Below are positions 33,810 to 54,946 of a DNA stretch of 64,000 nucleotides, one piece after another. Each line of letters opens with the position of its first letter. Position 1 is the first letter of the stretch. Below the pieces are notes generated by a model. It was not told where the DNA came from and ran no database searches. It was given only the letters and a program-made list of their open reading frames with translations. The translations under genes were made by a program, and so were the position numbers. The stretch is from Pirellulales bacterium (GTDB lineage: Bacteria; Planctomycetota; Planctomycetia; Pirellulales; PALSA-1355): NCBI GenBank assembly GCA_963733035.1, contig CAVTBU010000005.1, positions 1,952,001 to 2,016,000 on the forward strand, in the 5' to 3' direction.

Positions 33810-33932
33810 CCTGGCACCGCGCGGCACGGTCGTCCGCCGATTCGCCGTTGATGACGTGGTCGATTCGGCCGCCCAGAGAGAACATGCTGGGCGATCGGCT
33901 GCGGTCTGGAGCAGCGATTGCGCTCGGCGGAG

Positions 33933-37480: not shown

Positions 37481-39196
37481 ATGGCAGCCAAGAAACTGGA
37501 TTTTGCTGAAATCCTCATCCGCCAGGGTGTTATCTCCGCCGAGCAATTGGCTGAAGCCAAACGTGTCGCCAGAACGTCCGGCAAGAAAGTGCCGGATCAA
37601 CTCGTCGTACTGGGGTATGCCACCGATGACGAAGTGATGCGTGCGATCGCCAAGGAACATGGCCTCGATTTCATCGATCTGAACGAAGTCATGATTCCGC
37701 CGTCGATCGTGGAACTGGTGCCCGAGTCGGTGGCCCGCGAAAACGCGATCTTGCCGATGGCAGAGGAAGATGGCGGACTGAAGGTGATCGTTAGCGATCC
37801 GTTTGATCTGGAAACGTTCGATAAGTTGCGGTTCATTTTGAACCGCAAAGTTGATATCGCGCTTGCGCCGCGGTCCAACATCCTGGAGGCCATCAACCGT
37901 CATTATGGCCAGATGGAGGACCAGAGCGCCGACTCGATGCTCCAGGAATTCACCGATACGGCCATCGATTTCACCGAAACCGAACAGGAAACGACTGGCG
38001 GCTCCGATGAAGTCATCGACGAGAGCAGCGCTCCAATCGTCCGGTTGGTCCAGTTGCTGATCAGCGAGGCGGTGCAACTGCGAGCCTCGGACATCCACGT
38101 CGAACCGTTCGAGGATCGTGTCCGCATCCGCTACCGTATCGACGGCGTGCTGGTCGAGCGCGACAGCCCACCACGCCGCCTGCTCGGCGCACTTCTTTCG
38201 CGCGTGAAGATTCTGGCCAATATCGATATTGCCGAACGGCGACGCCCCCAGGACGGGCGGATCAAGGTGACCCTGGGCGAAAAACAGCTCGACCTGCGAG
38301 TCAGCATCCTGCCGACCAACCATGGTCAGTCGGCGGTCATGCGGGTGCTCGACAAAGACAGCATCCGGGTGGGCGTCAGGCAGTTGGGCCTGTCGGAGAA
38401 CGATTTTCGGCAGTTCAAAAACTTGATCCGGCGACCCAACGGCATCATTCTCGTGACCGGCCCGACCGGCTCGGGCAAGACGACCACGCTGTATGCCGCA
38501 CTTAACGAGCTAAACCGGCCGGACCGGAAAATCATCACGGCCGAAGACCCGGTCGAGTACTACCTGCCGGGAATCAACCAAGTGGAGGTAAGGCACAACA
38601 TCGGGCTGGATTTCGCCAAGATCATTCGGGCCATGTTACGGCAGGCTCCAAACGTTATCCTGGTGGGAGAGATGCGCGACCAAGAGACTGCTCAGATGGG
38701 GATTCAAGCCTCTTTAACTGGACACTTGGTTTTCAGTACACTTCACACGAACAATGCGCCCGGCGCTATTACAAGAATGACCGACATGGGCGTACCTGGG
38801 TATCTGGTTGCCAGTTCCGTAATGGCCGTTTTGGCGCAGCGATTGGTCCGCGTAGTCTGCTCGAAATGCAAACAACCTTTCACGCCCAGCGACGCACAAC
38901 TGGACGCGGCAGGCATCACCCCGGAGATGGCCTCCACGGCCAAATTCATGAAAGGAAAGGGCTGCGGAAATTGCTCGAAATCGGGTTATCGGGGACGTAT
39001 GGGTATCTTCGAATTGATGATGATGACCAACAAGGTCCGCGAAATGGCATTCGCCGGCGCTCCCACTCAGGAGCTGCGCCGCGTCGCTATTTCTCAAGGC
39101 ATGGTACCACTTTACAGCGATGGCATCCGTAAAGTCATGGCCGGCACGACGACGATTGAGGAGGTCTTCCGCGTGTCCAAGCGGGAGGAGGGGTGA
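37481..39196 (+). CDS. pilB: Type IV pilus/T2SS extension ATPase (PilB/GspE), copy 1
   Basis: ASDIHVEP, DIAERRRPQDGR, GPTGSGKTTT, EDPVE, GEMRD, TLHTN and CxxC...CxxC. Confidence 0.93.
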   Translation: MAAKKLDFAEILIRQGVISAEQLAEAKRVARTSGKKVPDQLVVLGYATDDEVMRAIAKEHGLDFIDLNEVMIPPSIVELVPESVARENAILPMAEEDGGLKVIVSDPFDLETFDKLRFILNRKVDIALAPRSNILEAINRHYGQMEDQSADSMLQEFTDTAIDFTETEQETTGGSDEVIDESSAPIVRLVQLLISEAVQLRASDIHVEPFEDRVRIRYRIDGVLVERDSPPRRLLGALLSRVKILANIDIAERRRPQDGRIKVTLGEKQLDLRVSILPTNHGQSAVMRVLDKDSIRVGVRQLGLSENDFRQFKNLIRRPNGIILVTGPTGSGKTTTLYAALNELNRPDRKIITAEDPVEYYLPGINQVEVRHNIGLDFAKIIRAMLRQAPNVILVGEMRDQETAQMGIQASLTGHLVFSTLHTNNAPGAITRMTDMGVPGYLVASSVMAVLAQRLVRVVCSKCKQPFTPSDAQLDAAGITPEMASTAKFMKGKGCGNCSKSGYRGRMGIFELMMMTNKVREMAFAGAPTQELRRVAISQGMVPLYSDGIRKVMAGTTTIEEVFRVSKREEG

Positions 39197-39607
39197 GAGA
39201 TCGCCTCGCAGCGGTTACTAAGGTCACATTGGCAATTAACAACGACGCCCGGCGGGCGGCCGCTGGGAAATCAAACGAACGAAATTGGGTGGAGTTTTTC
39301 GCGCGGAAAGAGGGAGCCAACCACGACCGCAACCAGACTAATAGGGGGAACACCGTCCTTTCCTATTTCCCCCGGCTGGCGGCGCCAAGCCTTGGCGTAT
39401 CGCGGCGGGGGTCCGAATAATCACTTGGCCATTCGGGCTACCCCGTTTTCTGTGGGGGCCTCAAACGGAACAGTGTGCCTTCGGCCGGTCTGGTCTGTAG
39501 CGAAATTTTCTGACGGCGGCGCGACAACATCGCCTGCCGCCCTGAAACCGTGGAGGCATCCTTAACCGCGTCGGAAGTTCAAACGACCGGCGACAGAGGA
39601 TTTAGAA

Positions 39608-40738
39608 GTGGCTACGGAAACGGTACTCATCGACAAGCTCTTGCATGCCGTCGTGCGGCAGGGCGCTAGCGATCTTCACATTACCGTCGGGCAGCCGCCG
39701 GTGATTCGGCACGACGGTCACATGGTCAAGCTCAAGACCAAGGTGCTCGAGCCGGCCGACACACAGTCGCTGATGAAGAGTATCACGCCCGACCGCTGCC
39801 AGCAGGAACTTCAGGCGGTGGGCGGGTCGGACTTCGGCTTCGCGTTTGGCGATTTGGCCCGTTTTCGCGTGTCGATTTTCAAGCAGCGCGGCAATGTCGC
39901 CATGGTGCTGCGGCAGATTCCCAACAAGCTGCTCACGATGGAGCAGCTGGGACTGCCAGCGGCTTGCGAACGGTTGATTCAACGGCCTCGAGGGCTGTTT
40001 CTGGTCACCGGTCCAACCGGTTCCGGCAAGAGCACCTCGCTGGCCAGCATGATCAACTATCTGAACGAGAACTTCGATCATCACATCATCACGATCGAAG
40101 ACCCCATCGAGTTCTATCATCCAAATAAGAAGTCGACGGTCAACCAACGAGAGATCGGGGTCGACGTACCCAGTTTCTCGGAAGCACTGCGGCGCGCGTT
40201 GCGGCAGGATCCGGACATTATCCTGGTGGGCGAGCTGCGAGACTTGCCCACCATCGAAGCGGCGATCAGCGCCGCCGAGACGGGGCACGTCGTGTTTGGA
40301 ACGCTGCACACCACGGGCGCCCAGGGCACGGTCAACCGCATCATCGACGTGTTCCCCACGACCCAGCAGGACCAGATTCGCACGCAGCTTTCCACATCGA
40401 TCATCGGCGTGCTCTCGCAGACGCTCATCCCTCGAATTGGCGGCGGGCGCTGCGCCGCTCACGAGCTGCTGGTATGCAATTCGGCCATCGGCAACCTGAT
40501 TCGCGAGAATAAGACCTTCCGCATCACCTCGGCCATTCAAACGGGCGCCAAGCAGGGCATGATCCTGCTCGACGACGCGCTGTTTCGGCTGTGGAAAGAA
40601 CAGAAGTGCACGAAACAAGACTTGCTGGCCAAGGCCGCCTCGCCCGATGAATTGGCCGCCCGCATCGCCAATGCCGAGCGGGGCATGTTCGACGAGGAAG
40701 ACGGGGAGAAGGGAGACGGAGAGGGCAAGAAGAAATAG
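39608..40738 (+). CDS. pilT: Type IV pilus retraction ATPase
   Basis: GASDLH, RFRVS, GPTGSGKST, EDPIE, LRQDPD, GELRD, TLHT and AIGNLIRE (AIRNLIRE variant). Confidence 0.95.
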   Translation: MATETVLIDKLLHAVVRQGASDLHITVGQPPVIRHDGHMVKLKTKVLEPADTQSLMKSITPDRCQQELQAVGGSDFGFAFGDLARFRVSIFKQRGNVAMVLRQIPNKLLTMEQLGLPAACERLIQRPRGLFLVTGPTGSGKSTSLASMINYLNENFDHHIITIEDPIEFYHPNKKSTVNQREIGVDVPSFSEALRRALRQDPDIILVGELRDLPTIEAAISAAETGHVVFGTLHTTGAQGTVNRIIDVFPTTQQDQIRTQLSTSIIGVLSQTLIPRIGGGRCAAHELLVCNSAIGNLIRENKTFRITSAIQTGAKQGMILLDDALFRLWKEQKCTKQDLLAKAASPDELAARIANAERGMFDEEDGEKGDGEGKKK

Positions 40739-40821
40739 TCGGTATTCACGACCCGCGCGGCACGGCAACAAATCACGATACACAGCACCGCATAGCAACA
40801 ACTCAATAGGCGTGACTTTCC

Positions 40822-42540
40822 ATGGCAATGCGTCGTCTCGGTCAAATTCTGGTGGATCTGGGATTCATCACCGATGATCAACTCGAACAGTTGCTCGAGG
40901 ATCACCAGGCGAGCCCGGGCATCCTCATCGGCAAATTTGCCGAGAGCCAGAACCTGATCAACGAGGAGCAATTGGCCCAGGCCGTGGCCGAGCAGTGGGG
41001 CATGCAGGTGGTCAACCTGGCCGACATTGTCGTGCCGCCCAACGTGCTCTCGATGGTCACCGAAACGATGGCCCAGATGTATCGCATCGTGCCGATCGCG
41101 TTTCGCGACGACTCGCTGACGATCGCCATGTGCGACCCGCAGAATCTGTCGATTCAGGACGAGTTGCGCACCTTCCTGGGTTATGAAATCCGCTCGGTCG
41201 TAGCCACCGAACGCGACGTACTCAAGGCGCTCGATCGGTACTACGCCGCTAGCAACGAAAGCGTTGAAAGCCTCGTGCAGGACATGGATGCCGACGAGGA
41301 GCTGGCCGCCGCGGCCGCCGCCGCCGGCAAAGAGGGGCCCATCGACCTGACCAGCGTCGAGGCCCTGGCCGACAGTGCCCCGGTGCGCAAGCTGCTCAAT
41401 ATGGTTCTGCTGATCGCCATTCGCGATCACGCCAGCGACTTGCACTTTGAACCGTTCGAAGATGAATTCCGCATTCGCATCAAGGCCGACGGCGTGCTCT
41501 ACGAAATGGTGCCGCCGCCGCGCCACCTGGCCTTTGCCATCACCACCCGCATCAAAGTGATGGCCAACCTGGATATTGCCGAGCGCCGCATGCCGCAGGA
41601 CGGCCGCATCGAACTGACCGTTGGTGGCCACCCGGTCGACCTCCGCGTCAGCGTGCTGCCAACCATGTTCGGCGAGAGTGTCGTCATGCGGGTGCTCGAT
41701 CGCTCGGTGGTCTCGCTGGACCTGAACAAGGTGGGTATGGATGCGCCCACGATCAAGGGCTTTCGCGAGATCATGCACAAGCCTAACGGTATCGTCCTGG
41801 TAACCGGGCCGACCGGTTCGGGCAAGACCACCACGCTTTACTCGGCCCTGTCCGAGATGAACCAGATCACCGATAAGCTGATCACCACCGAAGACCCGAT
41901 CGAATACGACATCGACGGCATCGTGCAAGTGCCCATTGACTCATCGATCGGCAATACGTTTGCCATGTGCCTGCGGGCGATCCTGCGTCAAGATCCCGAC
42001 AAGATCCTGGTGGGCGAGATTCGCGACATTGAAACGGCCGAGATTGCCGTCCAGGCTTCGCTCACGGGTCATACCGTGTTCAGCACGCTGCACACCAACG
42101 ACGCCCCCAGCACGATCACGCGATTGCGCGACATGGGCATCCAACCGTTTTTGATCACCGCCACGGTGGAAGGCATTCTGGCCCAACGGCTCGTGCGGCG
42201 CATTTGCACGCAATGCCGCGAAGTCTCAGTCCCCAGCAGCGAGATCCTGCAGGACCTTGACTTGTCCCCTTCGGATCTGGCCGGCAAGACCTACTACAAG
42301 GGGCACGGTTGCGATGCCTGCAATAACACCGGATATAAGGGACGCGTAGGCCTGTTCGAACTGATGATCATGAACAACAACCTGCGCGACATGATCATGC
42401 AGGATGCTTCGACCGAAGAACTGCGCGACGCGGCCCGCAGCTACGGTATGATCACGCTGCGCGACAACGGCATGAGTGCCGCCAGCGACGGCCTGACCAC
42501 GCTCGAAGAAGTTGTCCGCGAAACCGTGATGGAAGCCTAG
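40822..42540 (+). CDS. pilB: Type IV pilus extension ATPase (PilB/GspE), copy 2, with MshEN-like N-terminus
   Basis: RLGQILVDLGFI motif, ASDLHFEP, PQDGR, Walker A, GEIRD and tetracysteine motif. Confidence 0.93.
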   Translation: MAMRRLGQILVDLGFITDDQLEQLLEDHQASPGILIGKFAESQNLINEEQLAQAVAEQWGMQVVNLADIVVPPNVLSMVTETMAQMYRIVPIAFRDDSLTIAMCDPQNLSIQDELRTFLGYEIRSVVATERDVLKALDRYYAASNESVESLVQDMDADEELAAAAAAAGKEGPIDLTSVEALADSAPVRKLLNMVLLIAIRDHASDLHFEPFEDEFRIRIKADGVLYEMVPPPRHLAFAITTRIKVMANLDIAERRMPQDGRIELTVGGHPVDLRVSVLPTMFGESVVMRVLDRSVVSLDLNKVGMDAPTIKGFREIMHKPNGIVLVTGPTGSGKTTTLYSALSEMNQITDKLITTEDPIEYDIDGIVQVPIDSSIGNTFAMCLRAILRQDPDKILVGEIRDIETAEIAVQASLTGHTVFSTLHTNDAPSTITRLRDMGIQPFLITATVEGILAQRLVRRICTQCREVSVPSSEILQDLDLSPSDLAGKTYYKGHGCDACNNTGYKGRVGLFELMIMNNNLRDMIMQDASTEELRDAARSYGMITLRDNGMSAASDGLTTLEEVVRETVMEA

Positions 42541-42681
42541 CGGAGACGACTGCTCACCAGAAACGACCAACACGAGATCAACATACAGCCGGCCCGTCGA
42601 TGGCCGAAACTAAAGATCGATCAATAAACGGAACCTCCGCAGTACAGTACCCTCGTAGCACAGCGAATCAGGATCACGGCC

Positions 42682-44013
42682 ATGCCTACTTATCAATTCG
42701 AGGCCATGGACTCCACGGGTCAGGAGATCAAGGACGTTATCGACGCCCCGAGCGAGGAAGAAGCCCAGGCGACCATTCGCCAGATGGGCTATTTCGTCAC
42801 CAAAATCGCGGTCAAGAAGCAAAAGAAGACCGCGGCCGAAAAAGCCAAGGGGGGCAAAAAACGTAGCTTCGCCGTCGGCGGCGTCAACTCCAAGGTTCTG
42901 ACCGCCTTCACGCGCCAACTCTCGATTCTGCAGGACGCCGGCCTGCCGATTCTGCGCAGCTTGCGAATTCTCGAGCAGCAGAGCAAGCCAGGTCGGATGA
43001 AAAACAGCCTGATGGACGTCTGCGACGAGATCGAAGGCGGCTCCACGCTCTCCGAGGGCATGGCCAAGGCGCCCAAGGCTTTCAACCGGCTCTACGTCAA
43101 CATGATCAAGGCCGGCGAGGCGGGCGGTGCGTTGGAAATCATTCTCCAGCGCCTGGCCGACTTCCAGGAACGATCGCAGTCGCTCAAACGCAAGATCAAA
43201 GGCGCCATGATCTACCCGATCGTGGTCATCTCGGTGGCGGTCGGCATCTTGACCTTCATCATGATCAAGATCGTCCCCTCGTTCGTGTCGATCTTCGAGG
43301 ACTTTGAAGTCGATCTGCCGCCGATGACCGTGTTGCTGATTGCCATCTCCAATGGCGCCGTCAACTACTGGTACCTGATTCCGGGCATTCCGATCGGCTT
43401 CTTGCTCTTCATCAAGCTGTTGCGCAAATTCAATGCCGGACGCGTCGGCTGGGATATGTTCATCCTCAAAATGCCGATCTTCGGGCCGTTGGTCGAAAAG
43501 AACATTCTGGCCCGCACCACGCGAACCCTGGGCACGCTGGTTTCCAGCGGCGTGCCGATTCTCGAGGCGCTTAACATTACCCGCGAAACCTCCGGCAACG
43601 CGGTGTTCGAATATATGTTCGCCAAGGTCTCCGAGTCGATTCGCGAGGGCGAGTCCATCTCGAAGCCGATGAAAGAATTCTCGCAGATGACGTTTCATCC
43701 CATGTGCGCGTTTTTCTGGGCCCTGTTTTGCGGCGGCCCGATCGGGCTGCTGCTGTACATGGGCCGCATGCGGTCGCGCGTGGTCGACGACCTGACGGTC
43801 AACATGGTCGACGTGGGCGAGGAAACCGGCGAATTAGACACCATGCTCTACAAGGTGGCCGACACCTACGACGAAGAAGTCTCGGTGCTCACCGAAAGCC
43901 TGGTCAGTCTGATGGAGCCGCTTTTGATTATCTTCTTGGGTGGGGCAGTCGGGTTCATCGTCATATCACTCTTTATGCCGCTGGTGGCCCTGATTACGAA
44001 CTTGAGCGGCTAG
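42682..44013 (+). CDS. pilC: Type IV pilus inner-membrane platform protein (PilC/GspF)
   Basis: FTRQLS.LQDAGLPI, AGEAGG.LE, AMIYP, GVPILEAL and VGEETGELD. Confidence 0.94.
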   Translation: MPTYQFEAMDSTGQEIKDVIDAPSEEEAQATIRQMGYFVTKIAVKKQKKTAAEKAKGGKKRSFAVGGVNSKVLTAFTRQLSILQDAGLPILRSLRILEQQSKPGRMKNSLMDVCDEIEGGSTLSEGMAKAPKAFNRLYVNMIKAGEAGGALEIILQRLADFQERSQSLKRKIKGAMIYPIVVISVAVGILTFIMIKIVPSFVSIFEDFEVDLPPMTVLLIAISNGAVNYWYLIPGIPIGFLLFIKLLRKFNAGRVGWDMFILKMPIFGPLVEKNILARTTRTLGTLVSSGVPILEALNITRETSGNAVFEYMFAKVSESIREGESISKPMKEFSQMTFHPMCAFFWALFCGGPIGLLLYMGRMRSRVVDDLTVNMVDVGEETGELDTMLYKVADTYDEEVSVLTESLVSLMEPLLIIFLGGAVGFIVISLFMPLVALITNLSG

Positions 44014-44134
44014 GGAAGTTTCGCAGCACAACCATTTCACAACTCGAACGTCCTCCTTCGCCGCGCCCGCGGGGCACGCGCGAAGGCACCGTCGGCGCCC
44101 CCGGAGACAGCAGGTCTCCTGGCGCCGGCTCGCG

Positions 44135-44280
44135 GCCTGTTGAAGAATTCAGCGGGCTGCGACATCGCATGGATGCGATGACGAAATAGACGGCGTAAGT
44201 CGTCATTTCGCGAGCGGTGCGGAGCTTGGCTCCGCACTTCGCGAGGTTGAAAAATGTCACGAAGGCATTTTTCAACAGAC
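44135..44280. mobile_element. MITE/REP-like element with imperfect terminal inverted repeats and four internal hairpins
   Basis: Left end GCCTGTTGAAGAAT; right end reverse complement GTCTGTTGAAAAAT; four internal inverted repeats; no transposase. Confidence 0.6.
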
Positions 44281-44439
44281 AGTTAAGAACGATGAACCAC
44301 CACCGGCAGCACGGCGGCCTGGCGGACCTTCCGCCGGGCGAGCCGGTCGTGTTGCCGCCAAACGACAGCCACACAGCGCGTCCACGAGGGGCGCGGCCAC
44401 GAGCGAACCACGAGAGCGAAAGTAGCAAGGAACCCAGCG

Positions 44440-45533
44440 ATGCCCGAACCCAGCCCGCACGAACCGGCCCCGTCCCCCGCGCCTCGCCGCGGATTCACCC
44501 TCACCGAGCTGCTGGTGGTGATCGCCATCATCGCCATCCTGGTGTCGCTCACCAGCGTGGCCGTGATGACGGCGATGACCAAAGCGAAGCAGACCCGCAT
44601 CAAGGTCGAGCTCGACCAGATCGACTCGGCGCTCAAAGCCTACAAAGACAAGTACGGGGCGTATCCGCCGTGCAATTTGGCATTTAATGAGACCGGGATC
44701 CCGTCGACGAGAACAGAATCGACGCCTGGCGGTTGTTCAGGCAGCACCTGGCATTGGCGTTTCCGCGATACGACACGAGTCAACCTTCAAAACTCACCTG
44801 CAGAACGACCTTACGAATGCGGGCATCGACTTATACTAACGTTCGGCCCGGACCAGGCACTGGTGTTTTGGTTGCAAGGGTTCAGCTCGAATCCGCTCAG
44901 GCCGATTTTCAGCGTGAACAGCAAACAATGTCGATGAACAACAGCGAGGTACGGAGCTTGGCGTTATCCAGCGTACCAATGCTTTCTTCGAGTTCGACAA
45001 GACGCGGCTGCTTGCGAAAGCGAGTGTCCTGCCTGCGACCAGTTATATCGCGCCTTCGTATTTTCCCAGCGGGGTGAAGACCACTCTCCGCGGACGCGGT
45101 AGCCGCTGGAGCCGGACCCTATGTCTATTGGGATTCACGGTCGTATGGCGAAACGAACCACTCCGATGGGATGCGCCGGACCACGAGTGACCATGCTGAA
45201 TACGTTCAACCCAACACGTTCAAAGCCCATAGCTGACGGTGTTTTCCAATGCCGGGGTGACCTGTCCCTATTGGCACGACCGCAATGGGAACGCGTCCAC
45301 CAATCAGCCGGCGGACTTCAACAGCCAGAGAATCGTGGTGCAATCCCGATTCGTTTCAGCTCATCGCTTGCGGGGGCGATGGCAAGTACGGCTCAGGTGA
45401 ATCCTAACCCAACGACTGACGCAGCGGCTCTACCCGACCGGCACGAACTATGATCCCTCGACGAGCATTAGCCGATGACGACAACGTGACGAACTTTACC
45501 AATGCTTCGCGGATTGGAGATGATCGGCCATGA
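44440..45533 (+). CDS. Large pilin-like protein A (class III signal peptide); multiple apparent frameshifts
   Basis: RRG|FTLTELLVVIAIIAIL; downstream fragments ALVFWLQG, FFEFD, PYVYWDSRSY, NPDSFQLIACGGDGKYG and DDNVTNF; TGA overlaps the next ATG. Confidence 0.8.
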
Positions 45534-46903
45534 TGCGTCGCAGTGGGTTGCTCACGTCCGTCGGTCGCCGCGGGTTTACGCTCGTGGAACTGCTGATCAC
45601 GGTCAGCATCGTGGCGATCATGGCCTCGATGGTGCTGTTCGCCATGTTCCAGGCCCAGGACGCCGCCCGCGCAAAAAACCCGCACGCAGATCGCGAAGCT
45701 GAACAACATCATCATGCAGCGGTACGACGAGTTCCGGACGCGGAGGGTGCCATACACATTCCCGCCGCCGAAGTTTGCCGCGACGGCTCTGCCGGCAATT
45801 AAGGCTCAGTACTACAACGAGATCTCTCGCGCCCGGCTCGATTGTCTGCGCGACCTGATGCGGATGGAAATGCCGGACCGGATGAATGACATTGTCAATC
45901 CACCCGCATCGGCTCCGGTAACTCCCTTTCCGCACTCGCTGCCTTCGACTGTCATGAACGCATATTCGGGCTACATGGCAGCCCCGGTGCTTTATCAGCA
46001 GTACTACGCGCGATACAACGCCGCCACCATCGCGAACCCATCTAAGTGGCCCAACTATGATCACGAAGGCGCGGAATGTTTGTACATGATCGTAATGGCC
46101 TCGGTCGCTCAGCAGGGGGACGCTCGCGAAGTTTTCAAGAGCAGCGACGTAGGCGACACCGACGAAGACGGCTTGCCAGAATTTCTCGACGGCTGGAATC
46201 GACCCATTGATTTCATTCGGTGGGCGCCCGGCTACCTGTCGGTTTTGCAGACGCCGATCAGGGTTACGGGCACGGTAAATGCAAACGGCCAAACGGCAAC
46301 GCTTAATGTGACGGGCAACTACGGTCAGCGGCTTTCGCAGACGCCAGGCTCGTACATTGGCGGCGCGGCGATCTTGATCGACCCGACGACGCAGATGATG
46401 GATACGAGTAAGATGGGGAGGATCACCGGTTACAACTACACGCTCTCGCCGCTGTCGGTTACGTTTAGCTTCGAAGTTCCGAGCATGAGCATGCTTCCGC
46501 CCACCGCGAATCCATTTGGTGGAAGTAGCACGTCGGGTGAGTTCGTCATCCTGCAGCCCGATCCCTTCGATTCGCGCGGTTCATATCCTTGGTACGCTGC
46601 CGCGTCGACATATCCTGCTTTGGCAAATCCCACGTTTCGCCTCTACCCGCTCATCCTCAGTGCCGGTCCGGACAAGGTCTTTGGAATCATCCATGACTGG
46701 CAGATTCCCGCGGGATCTGGCAATTATTACAACGCTGCCGCTCCGTCGGTGCGGCTGAATCCGTTTTACGTGCCGCCACCAATCTCCGAATCATTCGGTC
46801 AGGCGTTGGCTCGACGCTCTATCACGTTACCGCTCCCGAGCCAAATTGGTATCGCGGCTGCGATGTCGACAACATCTCGAACCACAATCTCAATCAGAGG
46901 TAG
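45530..46903 (+). CDS. Large pilin-like protein B; apparent frameshifts near 45675 and ~46820
   Basis: RRG|FTLVELLITVSIVAI; RMEMPDR, AECLYMIV, DTDEDGLPEFLDGW.RPI.FIRWAPG, PLILSAGPD and DNISNH. Confidence 0.82.
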
Positions 46904-46906
46904 ACC

Positions 46907-48333
46907 GTGCGCGGCGGCAGGCGGACAATTCGACGCGGGCGGCGGCGTGGGGTGACGCTGTTGGAGCTGTTGATCGTGATGGTGATCTTGCTGATGATCA
47001 CCGCGGCGGCGATTCCGATCGTCGTGCCGGCTACCCGCAACCGCCAGATGCGCGAAGCCACGCGGCTGGTCACCACCTATCTCGGCGCCGCCAAGGCCCG
47101 CGCCGTGCAAACCGGCCGACCGGCCGGAGTGATGATCGAGCGATTCAACGGCAACGCGTTCGCGCTGCAGATGTCGCAAGTCGAAGTACCGCCACCGTAC
47201 GCGGGGGACATTCAACGTACTCAACAGACGAGTGGGGCGTTACCAGATAAGGGGCAACGTGACGAGTGCAACGAACAACGGCGCGGGACAAGTTCGCATC
47301 ACGACAGCGGCCCCAATTCCACTGGCATTAGAAACGGATTCAACGTGACGATGGCTGGCGTAATGGGAACCACGAAGCAAATGGGCGATGGAAGATTACT
47401 AACAATCAGCACCCACTTCGATTTACAGGGAAGCGCGTTCACGAATACATACACGAGCGGAGGAACCTTTTCTATCGAGTGCTGGCCATGCGTATTGCAG
47501 CTAGGCGCAGCGGATACCCAGTGGCAGAGCCTACTCAGATACGGAGATCAGGTGCGTCTGGATTATCGTGGTCTGCTTTATACGCTTACATCGGTGCCGA
47601 CGCCATTGCCGGCAACGGCAATCCCCTGGAAGTGGCAGACGATCAAGCAACCGCCTCCTGGAAATCGCCACCGACGGGAACTGGTTTCTGGCGGCAACGG
47701 GTGGCAAGCAACCGTTGACGCCAATCTGTTGTCAAAGTCCCTTACAGGTCTTTCGCCAGCCGGTGCGCACAATCACGCCGCCACTGTTGTTGCCGGATGG
47801 CATCGTGGTCGACCTGGCTATTTCGGGCGTTGGAATCGGAGGAAGTTTCACCCGTGTTCCTATAGCAGGCGATGACCGTCGCCAACGCCACCGCTTCCGC
47901 CGACTGTAGTTACTCGATCCGATGATTATCTTCTCTCCCAGCGGGCGTCTCGAGTGGGTAACCAATCCGCACGGGCGACTCATTCGTCCACTCGACTCGG
48001 TCTACCTGCTGATGGGTCGCCGCGAATTGATGTATGACGTGACATCGAAGAGTAATCCAAATGCCAGCTAAACAAGACATAGTCTCACAGAATCTCAGCC
48101 CAATTTCCAAGACAGCGGGCCTAGACCAACCCCACCCGAAAACTTTTGGATCTCAATCGGCTACCAGACGGGACTAGTGACGGTTGCTGAAGTCGCGCCG
48201 CACATCCAGGACTAAATTCCAGCCCCACTACGCCGCCACTTCCAATTGTGACTTTGACGCAAGTCGATACGTAAGCCTCCCAACTGCCCGCGCGTTCGCC
48301 CAGCAATCGCAAAGCTATGTGGGAGGGCGGTAG
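46907..48333 (+). CDS. Large FimT/GspH-like minor pilin C; multiple apparent frameshifts
   Basis: RRG|VTLLELLIVMVILL, REATR.V..YL..AKARA..TGRPAGV; C-terminal IFSPSG and WISIGYQTGLVT; TAG at 48331-48333. Confidence 0.78.
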
Positions 48334-48335
48334 AC

Positions 48336-49503
48336 ATGCGGAAGTGGCAACTGGACACAACTGGCGCATGCGATCTCCCCGCGCGGCCGGCCCGGCGGCG
48401 GGGGATCAGCTTGTTGGAAGTGCTGATCTCGATGTTCGTGCTGGCGATCGGGCTGATGGGCGTGGCGGCCCTGATTCCCGCCGGCCGGCACGAAATCGTC
48501 GAAGCCATCAAGCTCGAAAACGCCGCCATGGTTGGCCGCGGCGCCTTCCGGGATATCCAAATCCGCGAGTATTTGAATCCGGAGGAACTGGATGGGATCC
48601 AACAAGACCGGAGGAGACGTGGCAATGTACCGGGACGTACGGTATACGACTCGACACCACTCCCGCGACGCCGTTCAATATCTATCAATCCCGACGAAGG
48701 AACTGTACCAGGCAACGGCTCGCAAGTTGCCTTCGCAATCGATCCGCTGGGATTGACGGCCTCGACCACCTATGGAAATGTCTTTCCCTTCACGGTCTGA
48801 GCGGCCCCACGCCTCCGCTCCGCTTCGTCGCATCCTGCCGTTCAAGCCGGCGTCGAGCGATCCCGCCAACATGCGGGCGGCGTTCGATACGATCTTTCGC
48901 GGCTCGTTCGATCAGGTCACTCAGCCGAACACTGCCAGCAAGGATCTGCCGCCAAATCAGCAGTACTTTAATAACGGCACGACCTACCTTCGCCGCGCTT
49001 CGGACGGCAACTACTCGTGGATGGCCACTGTGGTTTCCGATCCGACCAAGTCGGCACTCGACGCCGAGGTGACCGTCTCGGTGGCCGTGTTTTATAAGCG
49101 GACCTTGCTGACGACGACCGACGCCGGCGGCAGCCCTGTCGCTGTCGGTGAATACATCAGTCAACTCAATACGTTCCCGGTACTGCCGATGACCAGCGGC
49201 GGCCAGGCGATCCTTTCCCAACTGCCGAACGACACGACCGGAAAAATGGTGTCGGTCAAACCAGGGCAGTGGATCATGCTTGGCGGGCGGCAACTTGCCT
49301 CGGCCGGACCTCCTCCGACCTATTACTACCACTATCGCTGGTATCGCGTACTTTCCGCCGCTCCGGCGAACACTTCAACGCAAACCCAGCAAGTCACCCT
49401 GGCCGGCCACGACTGGAACATTTCAAACGTCAACAGCCGGGCCTGGATCTTCGACAACATCGTCAGCGTGTATGAAAAGAACTTGCCGCTGGAATTTGAA
49501 TAA
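48336..49503 (+). CDS. Large PilV/GspI-like minor pilin D; apparent frameshift near 48790
   Basis: RRG|ISLLEVLISMFVLAIGLMGVAAL; FAIDPLG, YSWMATV, VSVAVFYKR and WYRV. Confidence 0.82.
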
Positions 49504-49586
49504 GTGCCGGAACAACCGGCAGGCGGGACGAGGGGCAAACAGTGACGGCAGGCCGGGGCGACCTGCCAGATGAGGAACCGACCGTG

Positions 49587-52500
49587 ATGAGACACTTGCC
49601 AACGCGCACTCCCCAGCATGATCTCGAATTCCGGCGACCAGGCACGAGCCGTCCGCGCGCCGCCGCGCGGCCGCGCCGCGGGGTGCTGTTGCTGGTGGTG
49701 CTGAGCCTGCTGATTCTGTTTTCGCTGATCGCGGTTACGTTCGTGCTGGTGGCCGGCCGCTACTACGACACAGCCCGCAACTCCGTCCGCATGGAGCAGA
49801 CCGGCGACAACCCCCAGCGGTTGCTGGAAGATGTGCTGGCCCAGTGCGTCCGCGGCACGACCAACCCGCACAGCGTGCTCCGCGGCCACAGTTTGCTGGA
49901 AGACCTGTATGGGAATGATGGGATTACATACAGCGATACGACGAACCATCTGGAAGTCATGACGTACTCGGCGTCCAGCTGGCAACCGATCGCGCCAGAC
50001 AAAGTGGGACAAATTATCGACCTGAGGTTTCGGCCAAGTGGTAGCGGAATCAAATTCGTGTCCTACCCGGGTGTTTCGCTGCCGGTCACTTACACGCCTC
50101 CCTACCCGCTCAGCCTGCAGCAGGCTCAAACGCCGGGCTATTTCAACGGCTGTGTGTTCACGGCGCTAGGGGGCGCTGCCGAAGGCAAGAGTACTCGGAT
50201 CGTCGGGCTGGGGACTCGTGAACGATATTACGTCGTTCGGGTCTTGGCGTTCGACGGCGTCACATTTACCCAACTCAAAACAACCCTCCGACCGGTTTTG
50301 TGATCAATGGCCGGCCGTTCAATGGCACGGGATTTGGATTCAATCCGAACGATCCATCGCCAGGGACGTCCCCCACGCTGTTGAGTGCGACCGAAACGAT
50401 CAGCGGAGCAGCCCCAGCCGATCCCCTTCGCACTGCTGCCCAATCCGGTACTCGCCGATCCGGCGAATCTAAATCCGTTGGCGAGCGTATCGGGCGGTGT
50501 GACGCATTATCCACAGTTCGGAGGCATTGGTGGAGCGGACGAAGACTACGACGCCCCCGATGCACAAAATATGCTGTTGGCGCACATCCCGATGTCGGTC
50601 CCCAGTGGTGCTACCTACCCTGGCGACAATCATTCCCTCGCTGCATCGCCCGGAGACCATCCTCTACGTTACCACAAACTTCACTCCGGGCACCGACGAG
50701 AGCCACGAAACTGTTGAACCAGCAGGTCAATGCTGAGGCCGCACACCGAGCGGCTTGCGAAATTCGCCACACATCCACAATTCCCGTACATCGATATCAC
50801 CGGCGGGCCATATGACGTCGACAACGATGGCGACGGGGTTGCGGAAAGCATTTGGGTCGACGCGGGACTGCCGGTACGTACCGCACCCGACGGCCGGACC
50901 TATAAGCCGATGGTTGCCATTTTGTGCCTGGATCTGGATGGCCGGTTGAACGTAAACGCCCACGGCAACGTCGGCACAAGTGGACTCGTATTACCTGGGA
51001 GCGACTCCCACTGCGTATACCGGTCTTGACCATCAATGCGAAGCAGCTGCCAACCACCCTCACCGTCACCTCCCCCAATCTGACACGCGGCCACGGCTAC
51101 GGGCCGGCGGAGATTAGTTTGTTCCCACTGTTTGTGCCGACCGGCACAACGACCGCGCCGACGACGTATCTGCAGCTGGCAATACTTCGCAATGTTGTTG
51201 AACTCCCGTTACGGTGAACCGAACACGAGGCTGTATGATCTGGCGCACGATCCGAGGCAAAGCATATACAATGATGCCGTATAACTCGAAGTCCCACGGC
51301 CGCAGCAACTGGAAGCCAAAAGGTCCCGAATTACCCGGGAGCTACCAGCTATGCCGATCTCTTGGCGGGACTGAACTTCACGCACTACCCGTATCCGTAT
51401 CCACTCACGCCGCCGCCGCTTCATTCCTTTCAGACGCCAACGGACTTGTCGGGCCGCGCCTTCACCGTACTCGACGCACGGGGCATGCCGCTGCCGATCT
51501 ACACGGACCGGACGACCGACATTCTGGATAGCCCCTATGAGTTGAATTTGAGCCGCAAAGCCGTGCGGTCGGCTTCATCGCCCAGCTTTACTCCGACGTC
51601 GATCGCGGCGGCCATCGCCGGCACGACACCCAATCCGCTGGATACGCCGTTTTCGCCGGCGGAGTTGGAACGGATTCTGCGAATGTATGATCTTGGACTC
51701 CGCCGATCTGCCCGATCGGCTGCGGTCGTTGGTTGAGCGGGACGCGGCGGCCCGGCACTCGACTTGCTGCGGAACATCATCACGACCGATAGTTTCGATC
51801 TTCCGGTGCCGGCGATCCTGCCGACGCGCGACATGCGAAGGGCCAATGGCGCTGCGAAGCCAATCATCTCGCCGTCGATGTCGGACTTGTTGCGCGTGAG
51901 GATGAATGCGGCGGGCTTTGCTGGCTCGTTCCCGACCGAAGTTGCGAAGATGCTGGCGCCGGAACTGGTGGCCGGTCTGCGCATGGACGTCAACCGCCCG
52001 TTCGGCAATGGCCGCGACGACAACAATAACAACATTGTCGACGAACCGTTGGAAATGCCGGAGTCGGCCTATTGGAACACGACCAACATGTCGGTGCCGG
52101 CCCGGTTCACGACCTCGCCCGTTCCGACCAATCCGGTCAACGGCATCGACGTGAACAACAACAATTTGGGAGACGATAACGCCCTGGCTCGGCAACTCTA
52201 CGCGCGGCATCTGTACATCTTGATGATGCTGCTGAAGGACGAGAACTTCCAAATTGACTACAACGGAGACGGCTTCGCGGGCAGCACCGCGGATCAAGTG
52301 GAAACCGCCTATGCCATTGCGCAGTGGGCGGTGAACGTAGTCGACTTCCGCGACCGCGATTCGATCATGACGCCGTTCCAGTTCAATATCTATCCATTCA
52401 AGGACGGCTGGACGGCGACCAACGATCTGTATAACCCGCCTGCCAATACGGGGCTGGTGTGGGGCTGTGAGCGGCCTGAACTGTTGATTACCGAGACCCT

Positions 52501-54946
52501 GGCATTCCACGACCGGCGCACGGAGGACCTGAGTACCGAACCGAATGGTCATACAACCACGGACCTGATGATGCCAGATGCCGACTACGATCAACGCATC
52601 CCGCCCCGGGGATCGCTGTTCGTGGAGCTTTACAATCCGTGGGTGACGCAGAGCACGGTCACGAATGCCGGCAATTTGCCATCGGCTTACGAGGTGCCGG
52701 GGGAGTTTTATAGCGTCAATACCACGGCCAACACGGCAACCGGCGTAAATCTGAATGCCACGTCTCTTAACGGAGGCTCGCCGGTTTGGCGAATGCTGAT
52801 CACGCTCGGCAGCGCCATTCAGACCAACGGGCAACCGAAAGACCCCGACCATCCATTTCCGGCCTACGCTCCGACGCTTGCCGAAATTGAACGGAGCATC
52901 TACTTCGTGCAGCCCCCGCAGACGATCACCGGCGACGGTCAGAAGTATTTCCAAAATCGGCTGGTCGCCCCAATTCTTCCCGGGCGATATGGCGTGATTG
53001 GTTCGGCGGGTCTCGCCAACACCCTCGGCGGTACCTATACGACAACCATTGGGCGACTTGTCCAGACGGCCAGCAATACGGCCGACACAGCGCATGATGG
53101 TAATGCGCAAGTCATCAACACGCGGCGGATCGTACTTTCACCGAGCGCAAATCCCGCGACGCCCCAAGTGCAGGTACTGCTCAATGGCTCGGCTCCAAGC
53201 TTCTCCGACATTCAGCCGCCGATCGCCATCGTGATCGACCAGGCGCAGGACGCGACGGGAAATGTCACGCCGCGTTCTATTAGTGTTTCAGAACCAACCT
53301 ATGGTTATCTCGCCGGCACGACGCAGGCCTTTCCCGCGGAACCCATTGTTTACAACCCAGTGCAGGACGTACCTCTGGACAACGCGAATCCAGTGGCTCC
53401 GATGAGCAATCGGCTGTGGCGTTTCATTCACCTACAGCGGTTGGCTGATCCCACGCTGCCTTACAGCCCCAAGACAAATCCGTACCGCACGATCGACACC
53501 GCACCGATCGCACTTTCAGTTTTCAATGGACTTACGCCACCTGGTACAATCGAGGCGATTTATACACCAACCGGGGTCTGTTCCACACAACGCGGCACAC
53601 AACAATCTGGCGTGGATAAGCCCATGCCGAACCTGCTTTGGGTTTATGAGCCGCAGGTGGCAGCCATCACTTCAATCGCGGACGGCAGCAACACTCACAA
53701 CGTTCCGTTTTTCGTCAGTGAATCGCTTGGATACTTGAATCAGGGATATGGCACGGCCGGAAATGCGATGAGCACTTTCACGTCGTCTTCAACCGCGCCG
53801 AGCAGTTATAGGGGATCGCCCAACGTTCAACCATTTCCCTGGCTCAACTGGAACAACCGTCCGTACGTGGGGCAATTAGAGCTGATGATCGTGCCCAAGA
53901 GCCGTTCGTCGCGGTTGACGCTGGAATACGCCCCAGACTTGGATCTAGACGCGACAAATCCCCACCACCCGTACGCCGGCCACGTGACAAGCACCAGTCA
54001 CCTGTTTCCATTCTTCGATACGGTTGCGGCATCGCAACCCGTGCCACCTAATCTTCATCGCGTGTTTGAATACCTGACAGTTCCATCGCGATTCGTGGGA
54101 ACGGAAACCGAGCTCGACCCCCAGACGATGAACGCCTTGCCCGCGTTCGACACCACGGGCGTCGAACAGACGTTAGTGTCGTTTTTGCATCCGCCGTTCA
54201 ATCGCGTGTCGAACTACCGAGAGCCGGGACGGATCAACATCAATACGATTTCCAGTGACTATGTTGCAACTGCTGGAACGTCACAATCTACTGTCTGGAA
54301 CGGAGTGCTGAATGCATCGGCGGGCGACACGATCCTCGCGGGTACGTCGCTGAACTGGCTCGCAGTAGCGCAAAGCCGCCAAGGAAAATCGTATCCGTTC
54401 CGACCGACGACCGGCAATTTGGATTCAACGTCGATATTTGGCAACCCGTTCCGATCGGCGGCCGGTGAAGCTCTATTGCTTCCGCTTACGAAGTACTATG
54501 CGGATCGGGATGAGGTCGACGTCACGTTGTTCCGTCCTGTCAACCCGGCAACGAATGCCCCAGCCACGGACACGCCGCTTTTCGGCTACACGTCGACACA
54601 GTTGCACAACAATTCGAGCCGCAATCCGTACTTCAGGCACCAGCACTTGCAGCGGATTAGTAACGTCGTCACCACCCGCAGCAACGTCTACGCCATCTGG
54701 ATCACGGTCGGCTATTTCCAGGTGCAATCGCCGCCGCTGGATTCCACGGGAACTGCGTTGCCCTTCGGTCCCGGCACGCCCTATCCGGACGGCTATCAGT
54801 TGATGGCGGAGATGGGGAGTGATACGGGGGAGGTGGAGCGGCATCGGGGGTTCTATATTTTCGACCGCTCGATTCCGGTGGCCTTTGAGCCGGGCAAGAA
54901 CCACAACTTCGAAGAAGGCCTGCTGCTGCGGCGGTTTATCGAGTGA
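49587..54946 (+). CDS. Giant PilX/GspK-type minor pilin E (~1,790 aa); several apparent frameshifts in the 5' half
   Basis: RRG|VLLLVVLSLLILF lacks Glu5; DVDNDGDG, DLDGRLNVN, GRININT, TTRSNVYAIWITVG and HRGFYIFDRS; consecutive ORFs 49542, 50300/50385, 50730, 50924, 51362 and 51764 tile one gene. Confidence 0.78.

What the first reader, a model, noticed from the sequence alone, without database searches (positions are those of the whole stretch)
37481..54946. Type IV filament system built from five oversized pilins, including a ~1,790-aa PilX/GspK-like subunit
Seen: pilB-pilT-pilB-pilC, then five tightly coupled genes with class III prepilin sites (G|FTLTE, G|FTLVE, G|VTLLE, G|ISLLE, G|VLLLV). 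Sizes are roughly 360, 460, 475, 390 and 1,790 aa. The last lacks Glu5 and has GspK-like GRLNVN/GRININT motifs, several Dx[DN]xDG Ca-binding-like loops and a TTRSN tail. No short major pilin, PilY1, prepilin peptidase, PilMNOP or secretin lies in the window. Established: minor pilins form the tip complex and are usually much smaller, and PilT implies retraction. The layout recalls the Verru_Chthon four-pilin cassette. Inference: a little-characterised retractile planctomycete pilus in which the adhesin or capture module is built into a giant tip pilin instead of a separate PilY1.
Basis: partly seen in the sequence, partly recalled or inferred. Interest (0 to 1): 0.8.

Follow-up and report, generated by a model that had tools for sequence, protein, structure and literature searches.

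The report
Planctomycete pilus operon, giant cap subunit
A gene cluster conserved in planctomycetes encodes a type IV pilus-like machine with four very large pilins and a roughly 1,790-residue GspK-like cap protein; this assembly's copy is broken by many frameshifts that look like sequencing errors, and a locus of the same layout was scored essential in a model planctomycete.

Summary
pilB-pilT-pilB-pilC (37481-44013) are intact. In this assembly they are cut by about 28-38 frame changes, all between 44.7 and 51.75 kb, with no nonsense codon on the aligned path. Relatives carry all five as single open frames (351/492/498/397/1786 aa in a same-genus genome).

The operon order is kept in 31 of 32 related loci. 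A second family of the same class has it with five prepilins plus a giant.

The giant protein hits no Pfam, NCBIfam or PDB sequence. Several things point to GspK:
- a Glu5-less N-terminal helix that aligns with planctomycetal GspK (hhalign probability 74-80%);
- its last place in the pilin operon.

The Verru_Chthon HMMs are not met. PilD, a PilM-PilQ cluster and a separate T2SS with an ordinary GspK lie elsewhere in the genome.

A published transposon screen of Planctopirus limnophila lists a locus of the same layout (Plim_0410-0401) among its essential genes, except the one gene in PilT's position.

Verdict: a real, widespread, uncharacterised variant of a type IV filament system. Tip location and function are inferred.

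The parts
37481..39196 (+). PilB1, extension-type ATPase with MshEN N-domain (571 aa, intact)
   Evidence: PF00437 2.2e-133 and PF05157 8.4e-25. TIGR02538 621.7 bits is below the cut-off 675.65; TIGR02533 605.3 is below 630.25.
39608..40738 (+). PilT-family retraction-type ATPase (376 aa, intact)
   Evidence: TIGR01420 446.7 bits, cut-off 319.1.
40822..42540 (+). PilB2, second extension-type ATPase with MshE-type c-di-GMP motif (572 aa, intact)
   Evidence: PF00437 4.2e-133 and PF05157. NF053729 42.8 bits, cut-off 38.
42682..44013 (+). PilC/GspF platform protein (443 aa, intact)
   Evidence: PF00482 2.2e-60 in 3 stretches. TIGR02120 373.1 bits is below the cut-off 424.
44440..45533 (+). pilin 1 (about 360 aa, RRG|FTLTE), GspG/major-pilin-like alpha1; broken by frameshifts here
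   Evidence: Orthologue P0001 (351 aa) hits PF07963. Profile A6 hits major pilins and GspG over the first ~70 residues, E 1.7e-14 to 1e-8. 7-11 frame changes. End coordinate approximate.
45530..46903 (+). pilin 2 (about 455 aa, RRG|FTLVE), paralogue of pilin 1; broken by frameshifts
   Evidence: P0002 hits PF07963. hhalign of A6 against A7 gives probability 99.5% over 172 columns. 3-5 frame changes. Start approximate.
46907..48333 (+). pilin 3 (about 475 aa, RRG|VTLLE), GspH/FimT-like N-terminus; broken by frameshifts
   Evidence: P0003 hits PF07963. TIGR01708 GspH 33.9 bits is below the cut-off 80. 5-8 frame changes.
48336..49503 (+). pilin 4 (about 389 aa, RRG|ISLLE), PilV-like N-terminus; broken by frameshifts
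   Evidence: P0004 hits PF07963. TIGR02523 PilV 28.3 bits is below the cut-off 52.2. 3 frame changes.
49587..54946 (+). giant Glu5-less GspK-like pseudopilin (about 1,786 aa; an alternative GTG start lies at 49542); 10-11 frame changes up to 51742, open from 51764
52460..53722 (+). beta-sandwich (Ig-like) insertion inside the giant protein (C-half model residues about 233-653)

Best explanation
This is the ATPase, platform and pilin operon of a type IV filament machine specific to the class Planctomycetia.

Proposed mechanism. Two PilB-type ATPases work on the PilC platform; at least PilB2 carries an MshE-type c-di-GMP motif. They assemble a filament from large GspG-like subunits (pilin 1 and/or its paralogue pilin 2). 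Assembly is primed by a complex of pilin 3 (GspH/FimT-like), pilin 4 (PilV/GspI-like) and the giant protein. The giant protein is a GspK-type cap: a Glu5-less pseudopilin whose GspK-like helical domain has been expanded by beta-sandwich and calcium-loop modules to about 1,800 residues. PilT can retract the filament. The prepilin peptidase and a PilM...PilQ envelope module are encoded elsewhere in the genome.

Shown: gene identities, conservation, operon order, the prepilin signals, the missing Glu5, and the weak but specific GspK fold match.

Inferred: which pilin is the major subunit, the cap position of the giant protein, the partnership with the distant PilM-PilQ cluster, and what the filament does.

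The frame changes in this window are most likely assembly or consensus errors, not gene decay.
For: Identities. PilB, PilT and PilC are identified.

Prepilins. Four orthologues carry PF07963. The cleavage motif G[FVIML][TS]L.E recurs across the order.

Operon order. PilB2, PilC and at least 3 pilins lie upstream of the giant gene on the same strand in 31 of 32 loci with 9 kb or more of flank. The same layout, with five prepilins plus a giant of 1896 or 1704 aa, is seen in two genomes of a second family.

Spread of the giant family:
- 753 hits among 7999 candidates scored.
- 5149 representatives at 50% identity with E<=0.001.
- 32 of 41 relatives.
- 15 of 15 sampled genomes of the second family.

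GspK likeness:
- None of 51 aligned giants has Glu at +5 (V 38, I 9, L 3, S 1).
- hhalign against a planctomycetal GspK alignment matches the signal and alpha1: 42 columns at probability 74%, 67 columns at probability 80%.
- The nearest named Atlas clusters for the last 307 aa carry T2SSK, T2SSK_1st or HHH_3, at scores 0.79-0.81, a lead only.

Pilins 1 and 2. Their profiles match major pilins and GspG over alpha1.

Partners elsewhere. An A24 peptidase of 428 aa and a PilM (724 aa)...secretin (1307 aa) cluster that has no ATPase of its own.

Artefact reading of the frameshifts:
- 28-38 frame changes but no stop codon aligned to a residue.
- Identity to orthologues is no lower in the broken part.
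- Other genes of the window are split in the same way: tex, UPF0261 and probably a deacetylase.
Against: - No HMM of GspK (PF03934, PF21687) hits the giant protein.
- hhalign beyond alpha1 is not significant (probability 1.8%).
- The N-half model is poor (pLDDT 62) and found no fold.
- No GspJ/PilW-like subunit was recognised in the Pirellulales operon.
- No subunit is shown to be the major one. At about 300-335 aa mature, pilin 1 would exceed the 42-297 aa range reported for 1,955 major pilins (passages of bioRxiv 10.1101/2023.07.22.550172).
- PilB and PilC score just below both the T4aP and the T2SS equivalog cut-offs, so the class of machine is ambiguous.
- The frame changes are about ten times denser here than in the rest of the window and stop abruptly at 51742. 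Random error does not explain that. No reads could be laid.
Confidence: 0.6

Rival explanations
1. It works as a type II secretion-like endopilus, not a surface pilus. A short periplasmic filament of GspG-like subunits, capped by the giant GspK-like protein, pushes or assembles something needed for growth through a secretin. Retraction by PilT is accessory.
For: - The gene order recalls gspG-H-I-(J)-K. Pilins 1 and 2 carry GspG-like N-termini (TIGR01710 E 5.4e-11; 5wda GspG E 1.3e-12).
- PilC's best NCBIfam hit is GspF, and PilB scores almost as well on GspE as on PilB.
- In P. limnophila, the table behind Fig. S3 lists the nine genes Plim_0410, 0408 and 0407-0401 of a locus with this layout. 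The paper describes that figure as showing the essential genes. Their insertion indices are 0 to 0.0056.
- Plim_0409, which stands in PilT's position, has index 0.022 and is not in that table.
- The authors suggest a secretion-related role.
Against: - PilT is kept in the operon in nearly all loci and in the second family.
- The same genome has a separate T2SS-like cluster with its own GspE, F, H, I, J, an ordinary 530-aa GspK and a secretin.
- GspE, GspF and GspG equivalog cut-offs are not reached.
- Orthology of the window's operon with Plim_0401-0410 rests on layout and was not tested with sequence.
Confidence: 0.25
2. In this organism the five pilin genes are true pseudogenes. The operon is decaying while pilB, pilT and pilC are kept.
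For: All 28-38 frame changes fall in 7 kb, with none in the 6.5 kb of ATPase and platform genes or in the last 3.2 kb of the giant gene. That clustering is not what uniform sequencing error gives.
Against: - No nonsense codon lies on the aligned path, and no large deletion was seen.
- Identity to orthologues is 52-58% in the broken genes, like the intact part.
- Other genes of the window are split by single frame changes, and the assembly is 92% complete in 10 contigs.
- Several related few-contig MAG loci show the same kind of fragmentation across all genes, including PilB and PilC (L046, L060, L107).
Confidence: 0.1
3. The giant protein is not a filament subunit. It is a membrane-anchored envelope or surface protein that merely shares an uncleaved N-terminal helix and is co-transcribed with the pilins.
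For: - PF07963 and TIGR02532 do not hit it.
- Most of its mass has no pilin-like match.
- One of 32 loci (L080) has the gene without the operon upstream.
Against: - The conserved RRG followed by a hydrophobic helix aligns with GspK's processed N-terminus.
- The GspK and XcpX fold matches.
- Its invariable place directly after the pilins.
- The conserved C-terminal strands TTRSNVY...WITVGYF lie colinear with GspK's last strands, though in a non-significant alignment.
Confidence: 0.1

Closest known systems
GspK / XcpX, the cap minor pseudopilin of type II secretion (PDB 3CI0 chain K, 5VTM chain X)
   Same: - Last gene of the pilin set.
- Class III-like signal without Glu5.
- The N-terminal helix aligns by hhalign.
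- The helical (helix-hairpin-helix type) domain is matched by fold.
- GR.N.N motifs are conserved: 44 and 41 of 51 sequences.
   Different: - Five to six times longer: about 1,560-1,890 aa in A1 against 280 and 259 residues in the two solved chains.
- No PF03934 or PF21687 hit.
- Large beta-sandwich and acidic-loop insertions.
- Encoded with PilT.
- The same genome keeps an ordinary 530-aa GspK in another cluster.
T4aP minor-pilin/PilY1 priming complex (FimU-PilV-PilW-PilX-PilY1)
   Same: - A set of minor pilins after the motor genes, with PilT present.
- PilM and a secretin are encoded apart.
- A large non-canonical tip protein is expected to give the filament its specificity (established knowledge; passages of PMC8179133).
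   Different: - No PilY1 (PF05567) hit; that search is inconclusive.
- No short PilA.
- The large module is part of the Glu5-less pilin itself.
- All pilins have about 300-470 aa.
Plim_0410-Plim_0401 locus of Planctopirus limnophila (Nat Commun 2023, PMC10632474)
   Same: - Four 'type II secretion' genes followed by six Planctomycetes-restricted proteins.
- The supplement labels five of these as PulG, PulG, FimT, PilV and PilW, and leaves the last unknown.
- The layout equals that of two complete genomes of the second family.
   Different: - That paper gives no pilin or cap interpretation; it suggests 'secretion'.
- It has one more prepilin than the window's operon.
- Orthology was not tested here with sequence.
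- The length of Plim_0401 (about 1,600 aa) is my arithmetic from its insertion index (3/4799), not a stated figure.
Verru_Chthon cassette (TIGR02596-TIGR02600)
   Same: Several prepilin-like genes followed by a very large protein A (model of 1296 positions). Weak N-terminal hits of pilin 3 to D and pilin 4 to B.
   Different: Every model scores far below its cut-off, and protein A gives no hit at all.
Modular pilins (Streptococcus sanguinis PilB; PMC8179133) and large major pilins (Myxococcus xanthus PilA, 208 aa; bioRxiv 10.1101/2023.07.22.550172)
   Same: A pilin module carries extra modules for presentation by the filament. Large globular domains occur in major pilins.
   Different: - The most extreme modular pilin quoted there has 860 residues.
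- The surveyed major pilins span 42-297 aa.
- Here the extra mass is inserted inside a GspK-like subunit, and none of the modules has a database signature.

Membership tests
Type IV filament superfamily | PilB/GspE-type ATPase and PilC/GspF platform protein | tested here: met
   PF00437 (2.2e-133 and 4.2e-133) and PF00482 (2.2e-60).
Type IV filament superfamily | Subunits with a class III (prepilin) signal, and a prepilin peptidase in the genome | tested here: met
   PF07963 is above its cut-off in the four orthologous pilins. PF01478 hits at C6:357003-357650 (428-aa ORF) and C5:318298.
Type IVa pilus (T4aP) | PilT-family retraction ATPase | tested here: met
   TIGR01420 446.7 bits against a cut-off of 319.1.
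Type IVa pilus (T4aP) | PilB equivalog score | tested here: not met
   TIGR02538 621.7 and 628.9 bits against a cut-off of 675.65.
Type IVa pilus (T4aP) | PilMNOPQ envelope module | tested here: inconclusive
   PilM_2 (724-aa protein) and a secretin (1307 aa) lie in one cluster at C5:1.212-1.221 Mb. The two genes between them have no Pfam hit. The link to this operon is inferred.
Type IVa pilus (T4aP) | Short PilA-type major pilin | tested here: inconclusive
   A motif scan of all six frames found 30 prepilin-like N-termini, none an obvious PilA of about 150 aa next to this system. Pilin 1 has a major-pilin-like alpha1.
Type II secretion system | GspE, GspF and GspG equivalog scores | tested here: not met
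   TIGR02533 605.3 and 598.8 bits (cut-off 630.25); TIGR02120 373.1 (cut-off 424); TIGR01710 42.7 (cut-off 88.85).
GspK (T2SSK, PF03934 / PF21687) | Match to the family HMMs | tested here: not met
   No family at E<=0.01 for P0005. None of 45 C-halves hits at E<=1. The six-frame search of the genome gives no hit in the giant gene.
GspK (T2SSK, PF03934 / PF21687) | Prepilin-like N-terminus lacking Glu5 | tested here: met
   None of 51 sequences has Glu at +5. hhalign to the GspK alignment A9 gives probability 74% and 80% over the signal and alpha1.
GspK (T2SSK, PF03934 / PF21687) | GspK fold: pilin fold with an inserted helical domain | tested here: inconclusive
Verru_Chthon cassette (TIGR02596-02600) | Protein A, B and D models above their cut-offs | tested here: not met
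   TIGR02600 gives no hit. TIGR02596 scores 29.2 bits (cut-off 70) and TIGR02598 16.8 bits (cut-off 51.4). TIGR02599 was not among the hits listed.
PilY1 (PF05567) | PilY1 C-terminal domain anywhere in the genome | tested here: inconclusive
   No hit, but the same search rang in none of the 14 control genomes.
Modular pilins as defined in PMC8179133 | N-terminal IPR012902/N_methyl signature plus an extra database domain | tested here: not met
   The giant protein hits neither PF07963 or TIGR02532 nor any other domain. It may work like a modular pilin without fitting that operational definition.

The most novel reading that the evidence does not exclude
Planctomycetia depend for growth on a lineage-specific type IV filament. 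Its roughly 1,600-1,900-residue GspK-derived cap, carried by unusually large pilins, does a job that no known T4P or T2SS does. Candidates are building or serving the crateriform/pilus apparatus proposed to pull macromolecules into the enlarged periplasm, or exporting an essential envelope component. Extension is indispensable and PilT-driven retraction is optional.
Probability: 0.3. Interest if true: 0.85.

Novelty: new variant of a known kind. Interest (0 to 1): 0.65.

Why it matters
Type IV filaments are usually accessory. Their cap subunits (GspK, PilX) are small, and the specificity module (PilY1) is a separate protein. Here a whole bacterial class keeps an operon in which every pilin is two to three times the usual size. 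The cap has grown to about 1,800 residues made of modules with no database signature.

Planctomycetes are thought to take up whole polysaccharides with pilus-like 'fishing rods' (passage of PMC12078418, which cites Boedeker et al. 2017; I did not read the latter). No pilins have been assigned to that process in the papers I could search.

A transposon screen in P. limnophila lists a locus of this layout among essential genes (PMC10632474). If it is the same system, this is a rare case of an indispensable type IV filament. It would give a concrete, genetically tractable entry to planctomycetal envelope biology.

For this particular window the practical message is that the gene calls will be wrong until the region is polished.

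Tried and rejected
- Sequencing runs for window 44000-52500: none was listed and no RNA holder was listed. The frame changes could therefore not be checked on reads, and read laying was not used.
- Long-ORF coverage along the genome did not single out the region, because the high G+C gives long spurious frames.
- Promoter and terminator scans gave no more sites than shuffles.
- PDB sequence searches:
  - Giant profile A1: no chain at E<=10.
  - Pilin 4 profile: nothing below E 0.3.
  - Pilin 1-3 profiles: the alpha1 helix only.
- Foldseek against PDB: best E 0.12 for the N-half model and 1.8 for the C-half model.
- hhalign of the giant alignment against the single 530-aa GspK sequence: probability 10%.
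- C-half against the GspK alignment: probability 1.8%.
- TIGR02600 and PF03934 in the own genome: no usable hit.
- PF05567: no hit and no control rang.
- Rfam on the intergenic repeat: only sub-threshold rows.
- ESM Atlas holds no model of the protein, so there was no search by structure.
- The representative search lists only its best 150 hits, all close relatives, so the distant end of the family could not be inspected.
- The search of earlier findings returned nothing for this place.
- Complex prediction was not used. The giant protein's pilin module is split between its two ends and exceeds the size limit.
- Literature searches found no paper that describes these pilins or the giant protein as such. 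'Verru_Chthon cassette' is in no held paper.

Full report
**What is in the window**

The plus strand from 37481 to 54946 is one co-oriented block. It is flanked by a divergent Big_13 protein gene (33737-36928, minus strand) and a convergent amidohydrolase gene (54989-56674, minus strand).

The first four genes are open and identify cleanly.
- PilB1 (571 aa) has T2SSE plus MshEN domains.
- The PilT-family ATPase (376 aa) scores 446.7 bits on TIGR01420, above the cut-off of 319.1.
- PilB2 (572 aa) scores 42.8 bits on the MshE-type c-di-GMP motif model NF053729, above its cut-off of 38. PilB1 scores 31.2.
- PilC (443 aa) has T2SSF domains.
- PilB and PilC fall just short of both the T4aP and the T2SS equivalog cut-offs.

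**The five pilin genes and their state in this assembly**

Downstream of 44440, however, no long frame exists until 51764.

I aligned the same-genus orthologues (G001: 351, 492, 498, 397 and 1786 aa, all open) to the window with a frame-aware dynamic programme.
- At a frameshift penalty of 14 the path needs 38 frame changes.
- At a penalty of 25 it needs 28.
- All lie between 44713 and 51742. A few in the leader regions may be artefacts of over-long orthologue N-termini.
- No stop codon is aligned to a residue. Two stops lie in unaligned inserted codons.
- Identity to the orthologues is 52-58% throughout.

Elsewhere in the window other genes are split between frames. The tex gene is one (Tex_N and central region in 7850-8782, YqgF/HHH/S1 in 8361-10229). 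UPF0261 is another (N-domain 30020-30823, C-domain 29572-30294). A histone-deacetylase-family gene is probably a third.

An indel-only pattern in an assembly of 10 contigs at 92% completeness points to consensus error. The tenfold local density and the sharp end at 51742 remain unexplained. No sequencing run was listed for a check.

**The genes are real and conserved**

- The 1060-aa C-terminal frame finds a match in 32 of 41 related genomes, G000 included. Single open frames of 1564-1996 aa are seen in many of them.
- The word-indexed search gave 753 proteins at E<=0.001 among 7999 candidates scored. All are 'hypothetical protein' without precomputed Pfam domains.
- A profile of the C-half found 5149 representatives at 50% identity, 2634 of them at E<=1e-30.
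The 72 loci kept bear Pirellulales, Pirellulaceae, Thermoguttaceae or Planctomycetia MAG titles.
- 44 of these 72 loci gave one frame of 1528-1923 aa.
- Of 32 loci with at least 9 kb upstream, 31 have PilB2, PilC and at least three of the four pilin homologues on the same strand. L080 has none. Pilin 1 is not detected in six loci. In L056 and L058 the gap between PilC and pilin 2 is only about 320-350 bases.
- Among the best-hit frames that carry a cleavage motif, mature lengths have medians of 305, 316, 335 and 352 aa. Frames without a motif were dropped before this count, which left 24, 26, 36 and 36 rows. Two frames were counted under both pilin 1 and pilin 2.

In an even sample of 301 genomes of the phylum, the C-half profile hit 18 at E<=1e-10. 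These were G000, the one other genome of the order, 15 of 15 genomes of a second family of the same class, and one more.

Two complete genomes of that second family show PilT-PilB-PilC, five N_methyl prepilins and a giant.
- G213: prepilins of 326, 348, 464, 460 and 721 aa, and a giant of 1896 aa.
- G135: prepilins of 309, 348, 487, 410 and 534 aa, and a giant of 1704 aa.

**What the pilins are**

All four orthologues reach the N_methyl cut-off and nothing else in Pfam.
- Profiles of pilins 1, 2 and 3 match solved major pilins and GspG only over alpha1. Pilin 1 is the strongest, at E 1.7e-14 to 1e-8 over about 70 residues.
- Pilin 4 matches nothing.
- Pilins 1 and 2 are paralogues (hhalign probability 99.5%, 172 columns).
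- Sub-threshold NCBIfam hits give the order G-like, G/H-like, H-like, PilV-like.
- I see GspG-type C-terminal motifs (…AG.DG.FG…DN.TNF) in the pilin 1 alignment. That reading rests on my recollection of GspG, not on a test.

**What the giant protein is**

It has no Pfam or NCBIfam hit. That holds for the whole protein at E<=0.01 and for 45 C-halves at E<=1. There is no PDB sequence match either.

Conserved features in 51 aligned members:
- RRG followed by a hydrophobic helix, with V, I, L or S at +5 and never Glu;
- Dx[DN]x[DN]G at P0005 positions 436/438 in 48-49 members, and weaker copies at 822 (28 members) and 865 (33 members);
- GR[LIV]N[LIV]N at position 478 (44 members) and 1570 (41 members);
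- T[TS]RSN at position 1704 (44 members).

The own genome holds a bona fide 530-aa GspK (PF21687 and PF12836 precomputed; sources name relatives GspK or PulK). It sits in a separate gspE-F-H-I-J-K…secretin cluster.
- Against an alignment of that family, the giant's signal and alpha1 align at probability 74% (42 columns) and 80% (67 columns).
- The rest does not align significantly (probability 1.8%). That non-significant alignment is nonetheless colinear for RINLNT and for the last strands.

AlphaFold2 results:
- The window's own C-half, with 45 sequences, gave pLDDT 68.7 and pTM 0.81.
- Foldseek found nothing for it.
- The GspK match spans model residues 13-815. The beta-sandwich matches fill residues 233-653. 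This is the picture of a GspK helical domain split by a large insertion.

The N-half model is poor (pLDDT 62) and gave no informative match. The protein-language-model Atlas puts T2SSK, T2SSK_1st and HHH_3 clusters nearest to the last 307 residues, at scores of 0.79-0.81. That is a lead only.

**The rest of the machine**

The genome encodes:
- a 428-aa A24 peptidase;
- a PilM (724 aa)-410 aa-537 aa-secretin (1307 aa) cluster about 740 kb away, with no ATPase of its own;
- a Tad-like cluster, the T2SS-like cluster and further GspE/F genes.

Pairing the PilM-secretin cluster with this operon is my inference.

**Literature**

I saw passages only, through term searches, unless stated otherwise.
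- PMC12078418 states the hypothesis that planctomycetal pili of pilin-like proteins act as 'fishing rods' for polysaccharides. It cites Boedeker et al. 2017, which I did not read.
- PMC8303584 describes T4P-like envelope-spanning structures in Pirellulales isolates.
- PMC11958385 reports that three pilQ-like genes of P. limnophila can be deleted.
- PMC8179133 surveys modular pilins and quotes an 860-residue extreme.
- bioRxiv 10.1101/2023.07.22.550172 gives 42-297 aa (mean 141) for 1,955 major pilins.

Most relevant is PMC10632474. [quoted passage not shown] Four 'type II secretion' genes are followed by six proteins restricted to Planctomycetes, which suggested to the authors a secretion-related function.

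Its supplementary tables add detail.
- They label Plim_0406 and Plim_0405 as PulG, Plim_0404 as FimT, Plim_0403 as PilV and Plim_0402 as PilW. Plim_0401 has no named group, and its orthologous group is found in 47.5% of Planctomycetia.
- All nine, together with Plim_0076 (labelled PilM) and Plim_0641 (labelled PulD with TPR), appear in the table behind Fig. S3. The text says that figure shows the essential genes.
- Their insertion indices are 0 to 0.0062, against manual cut-offs of 0.013 and 0.022.
- Plim_0409, the one gene of that run whose label I did not see and which stands in PilT's position, has an index of 0.0225 and is absent from that table.
- The authors caution that low indices can also come from DNA condensation.
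- From the indices I compute gene lengths of about 1,600 aa for Plim_0401 (3/4799), about 1,566 aa for the secretin and about 749 aa for PilM. This is my arithmetic, not the paper's statement.

The layout equals that of L115 and L116. I did not have the Plim sequences, so orthology is inferred.

**Verdict**

It is a planctomycete-specific type IV filament operon with oversized pilins and a giant GspK-derived subunit.
- The Verru_Chthon link fails its HMM tests.
- The tip or adhesin role is untested.
- The published essentiality pattern keeps a secretion-type or envelope role open.

Confidence in each reading:
- composite best explanation: 0.6;
- secretion-type rival: 0.25;
- true pseudogenes in this organism: 0.1;
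- giant protein not a filament subunit: 0.1.

Novelty: a new variant of a known kind.

Noticed in passing
window 44122-44286 (between pilC and pilin 1); copies in L002-L008: A dispersed intergenic repeat of about 150 bases. At least 13 further copies at 83-90% identity lie on five contigs, with unrelated flanks and four short hairpins. Rfam gives only sub-threshold rows. It looks like a REP/MITE-type element.
   Followed up: partly
window 7850-10232 (+), 29572-30826 (-), 4680-6613 (+): Other genes are split between overlapping frames. The tex gene has its N and central domains in one frame and its YqgF/HHH/S1 domains in another. UPF0261 has its N and C domains in two frames. A histone-deacetylase-family gene lacks its first 87 profile positions. 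These are signs of scattered indel errors in the assembly.
   Followed up: partly
L117 (G000:C5:150000-166000): A separate T2SS-like cluster in the same genome. It holds gspE, gspF, three small pseudopilins (196, 149 and 395 aa), a bona fide 530-aa GspK (PF21687+PF12836), a PilM-like gene and a 1047-aa secretin.
   Followed up: partly
L038 (G000:C5:1206000-1225999): A PilM (724 aa, longer than usual), two unannotated genes (410 and 537 aa) and a 1307-aa secretin with a weak HemY_N/TPR-like N-terminal hit, next to aroB. In size it resembles the PilM- and PulD-labelled genes that stand in the essential-gene table (Fig. S3) of P. limnophila.
   Followed up: partly
L080: The one locus of 32 in which the giant gene (1548-aa ORF) has none of the ATPase, platform or pilin genes within 10 kb upstream.
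   Followed up: no
L115 334-1497 (-): In a genome of the second family, a DUF1559 (SBP_bac_10) prepilin gene lies directly downstream of the giant gene. DUF1559 prepilins are the large planctomycetal paralogue family of unknown role (passages of PMC8567305 and PMC10632474).
   Followed up: no
L046, L060, L107 (related MAG loci): Several related MAG loci taken from long contigs show fragmentation of all operon genes, PilB and PilC included. Frameshift-rich assemblies are therefore common in this group.
   Followed up: no
window 33737-36928 (-): A 1062-aa protein with one bacterial Ig-like (Big_13) domain is transcribed divergently from the operon. No link to it was examined.
   Followed up: no
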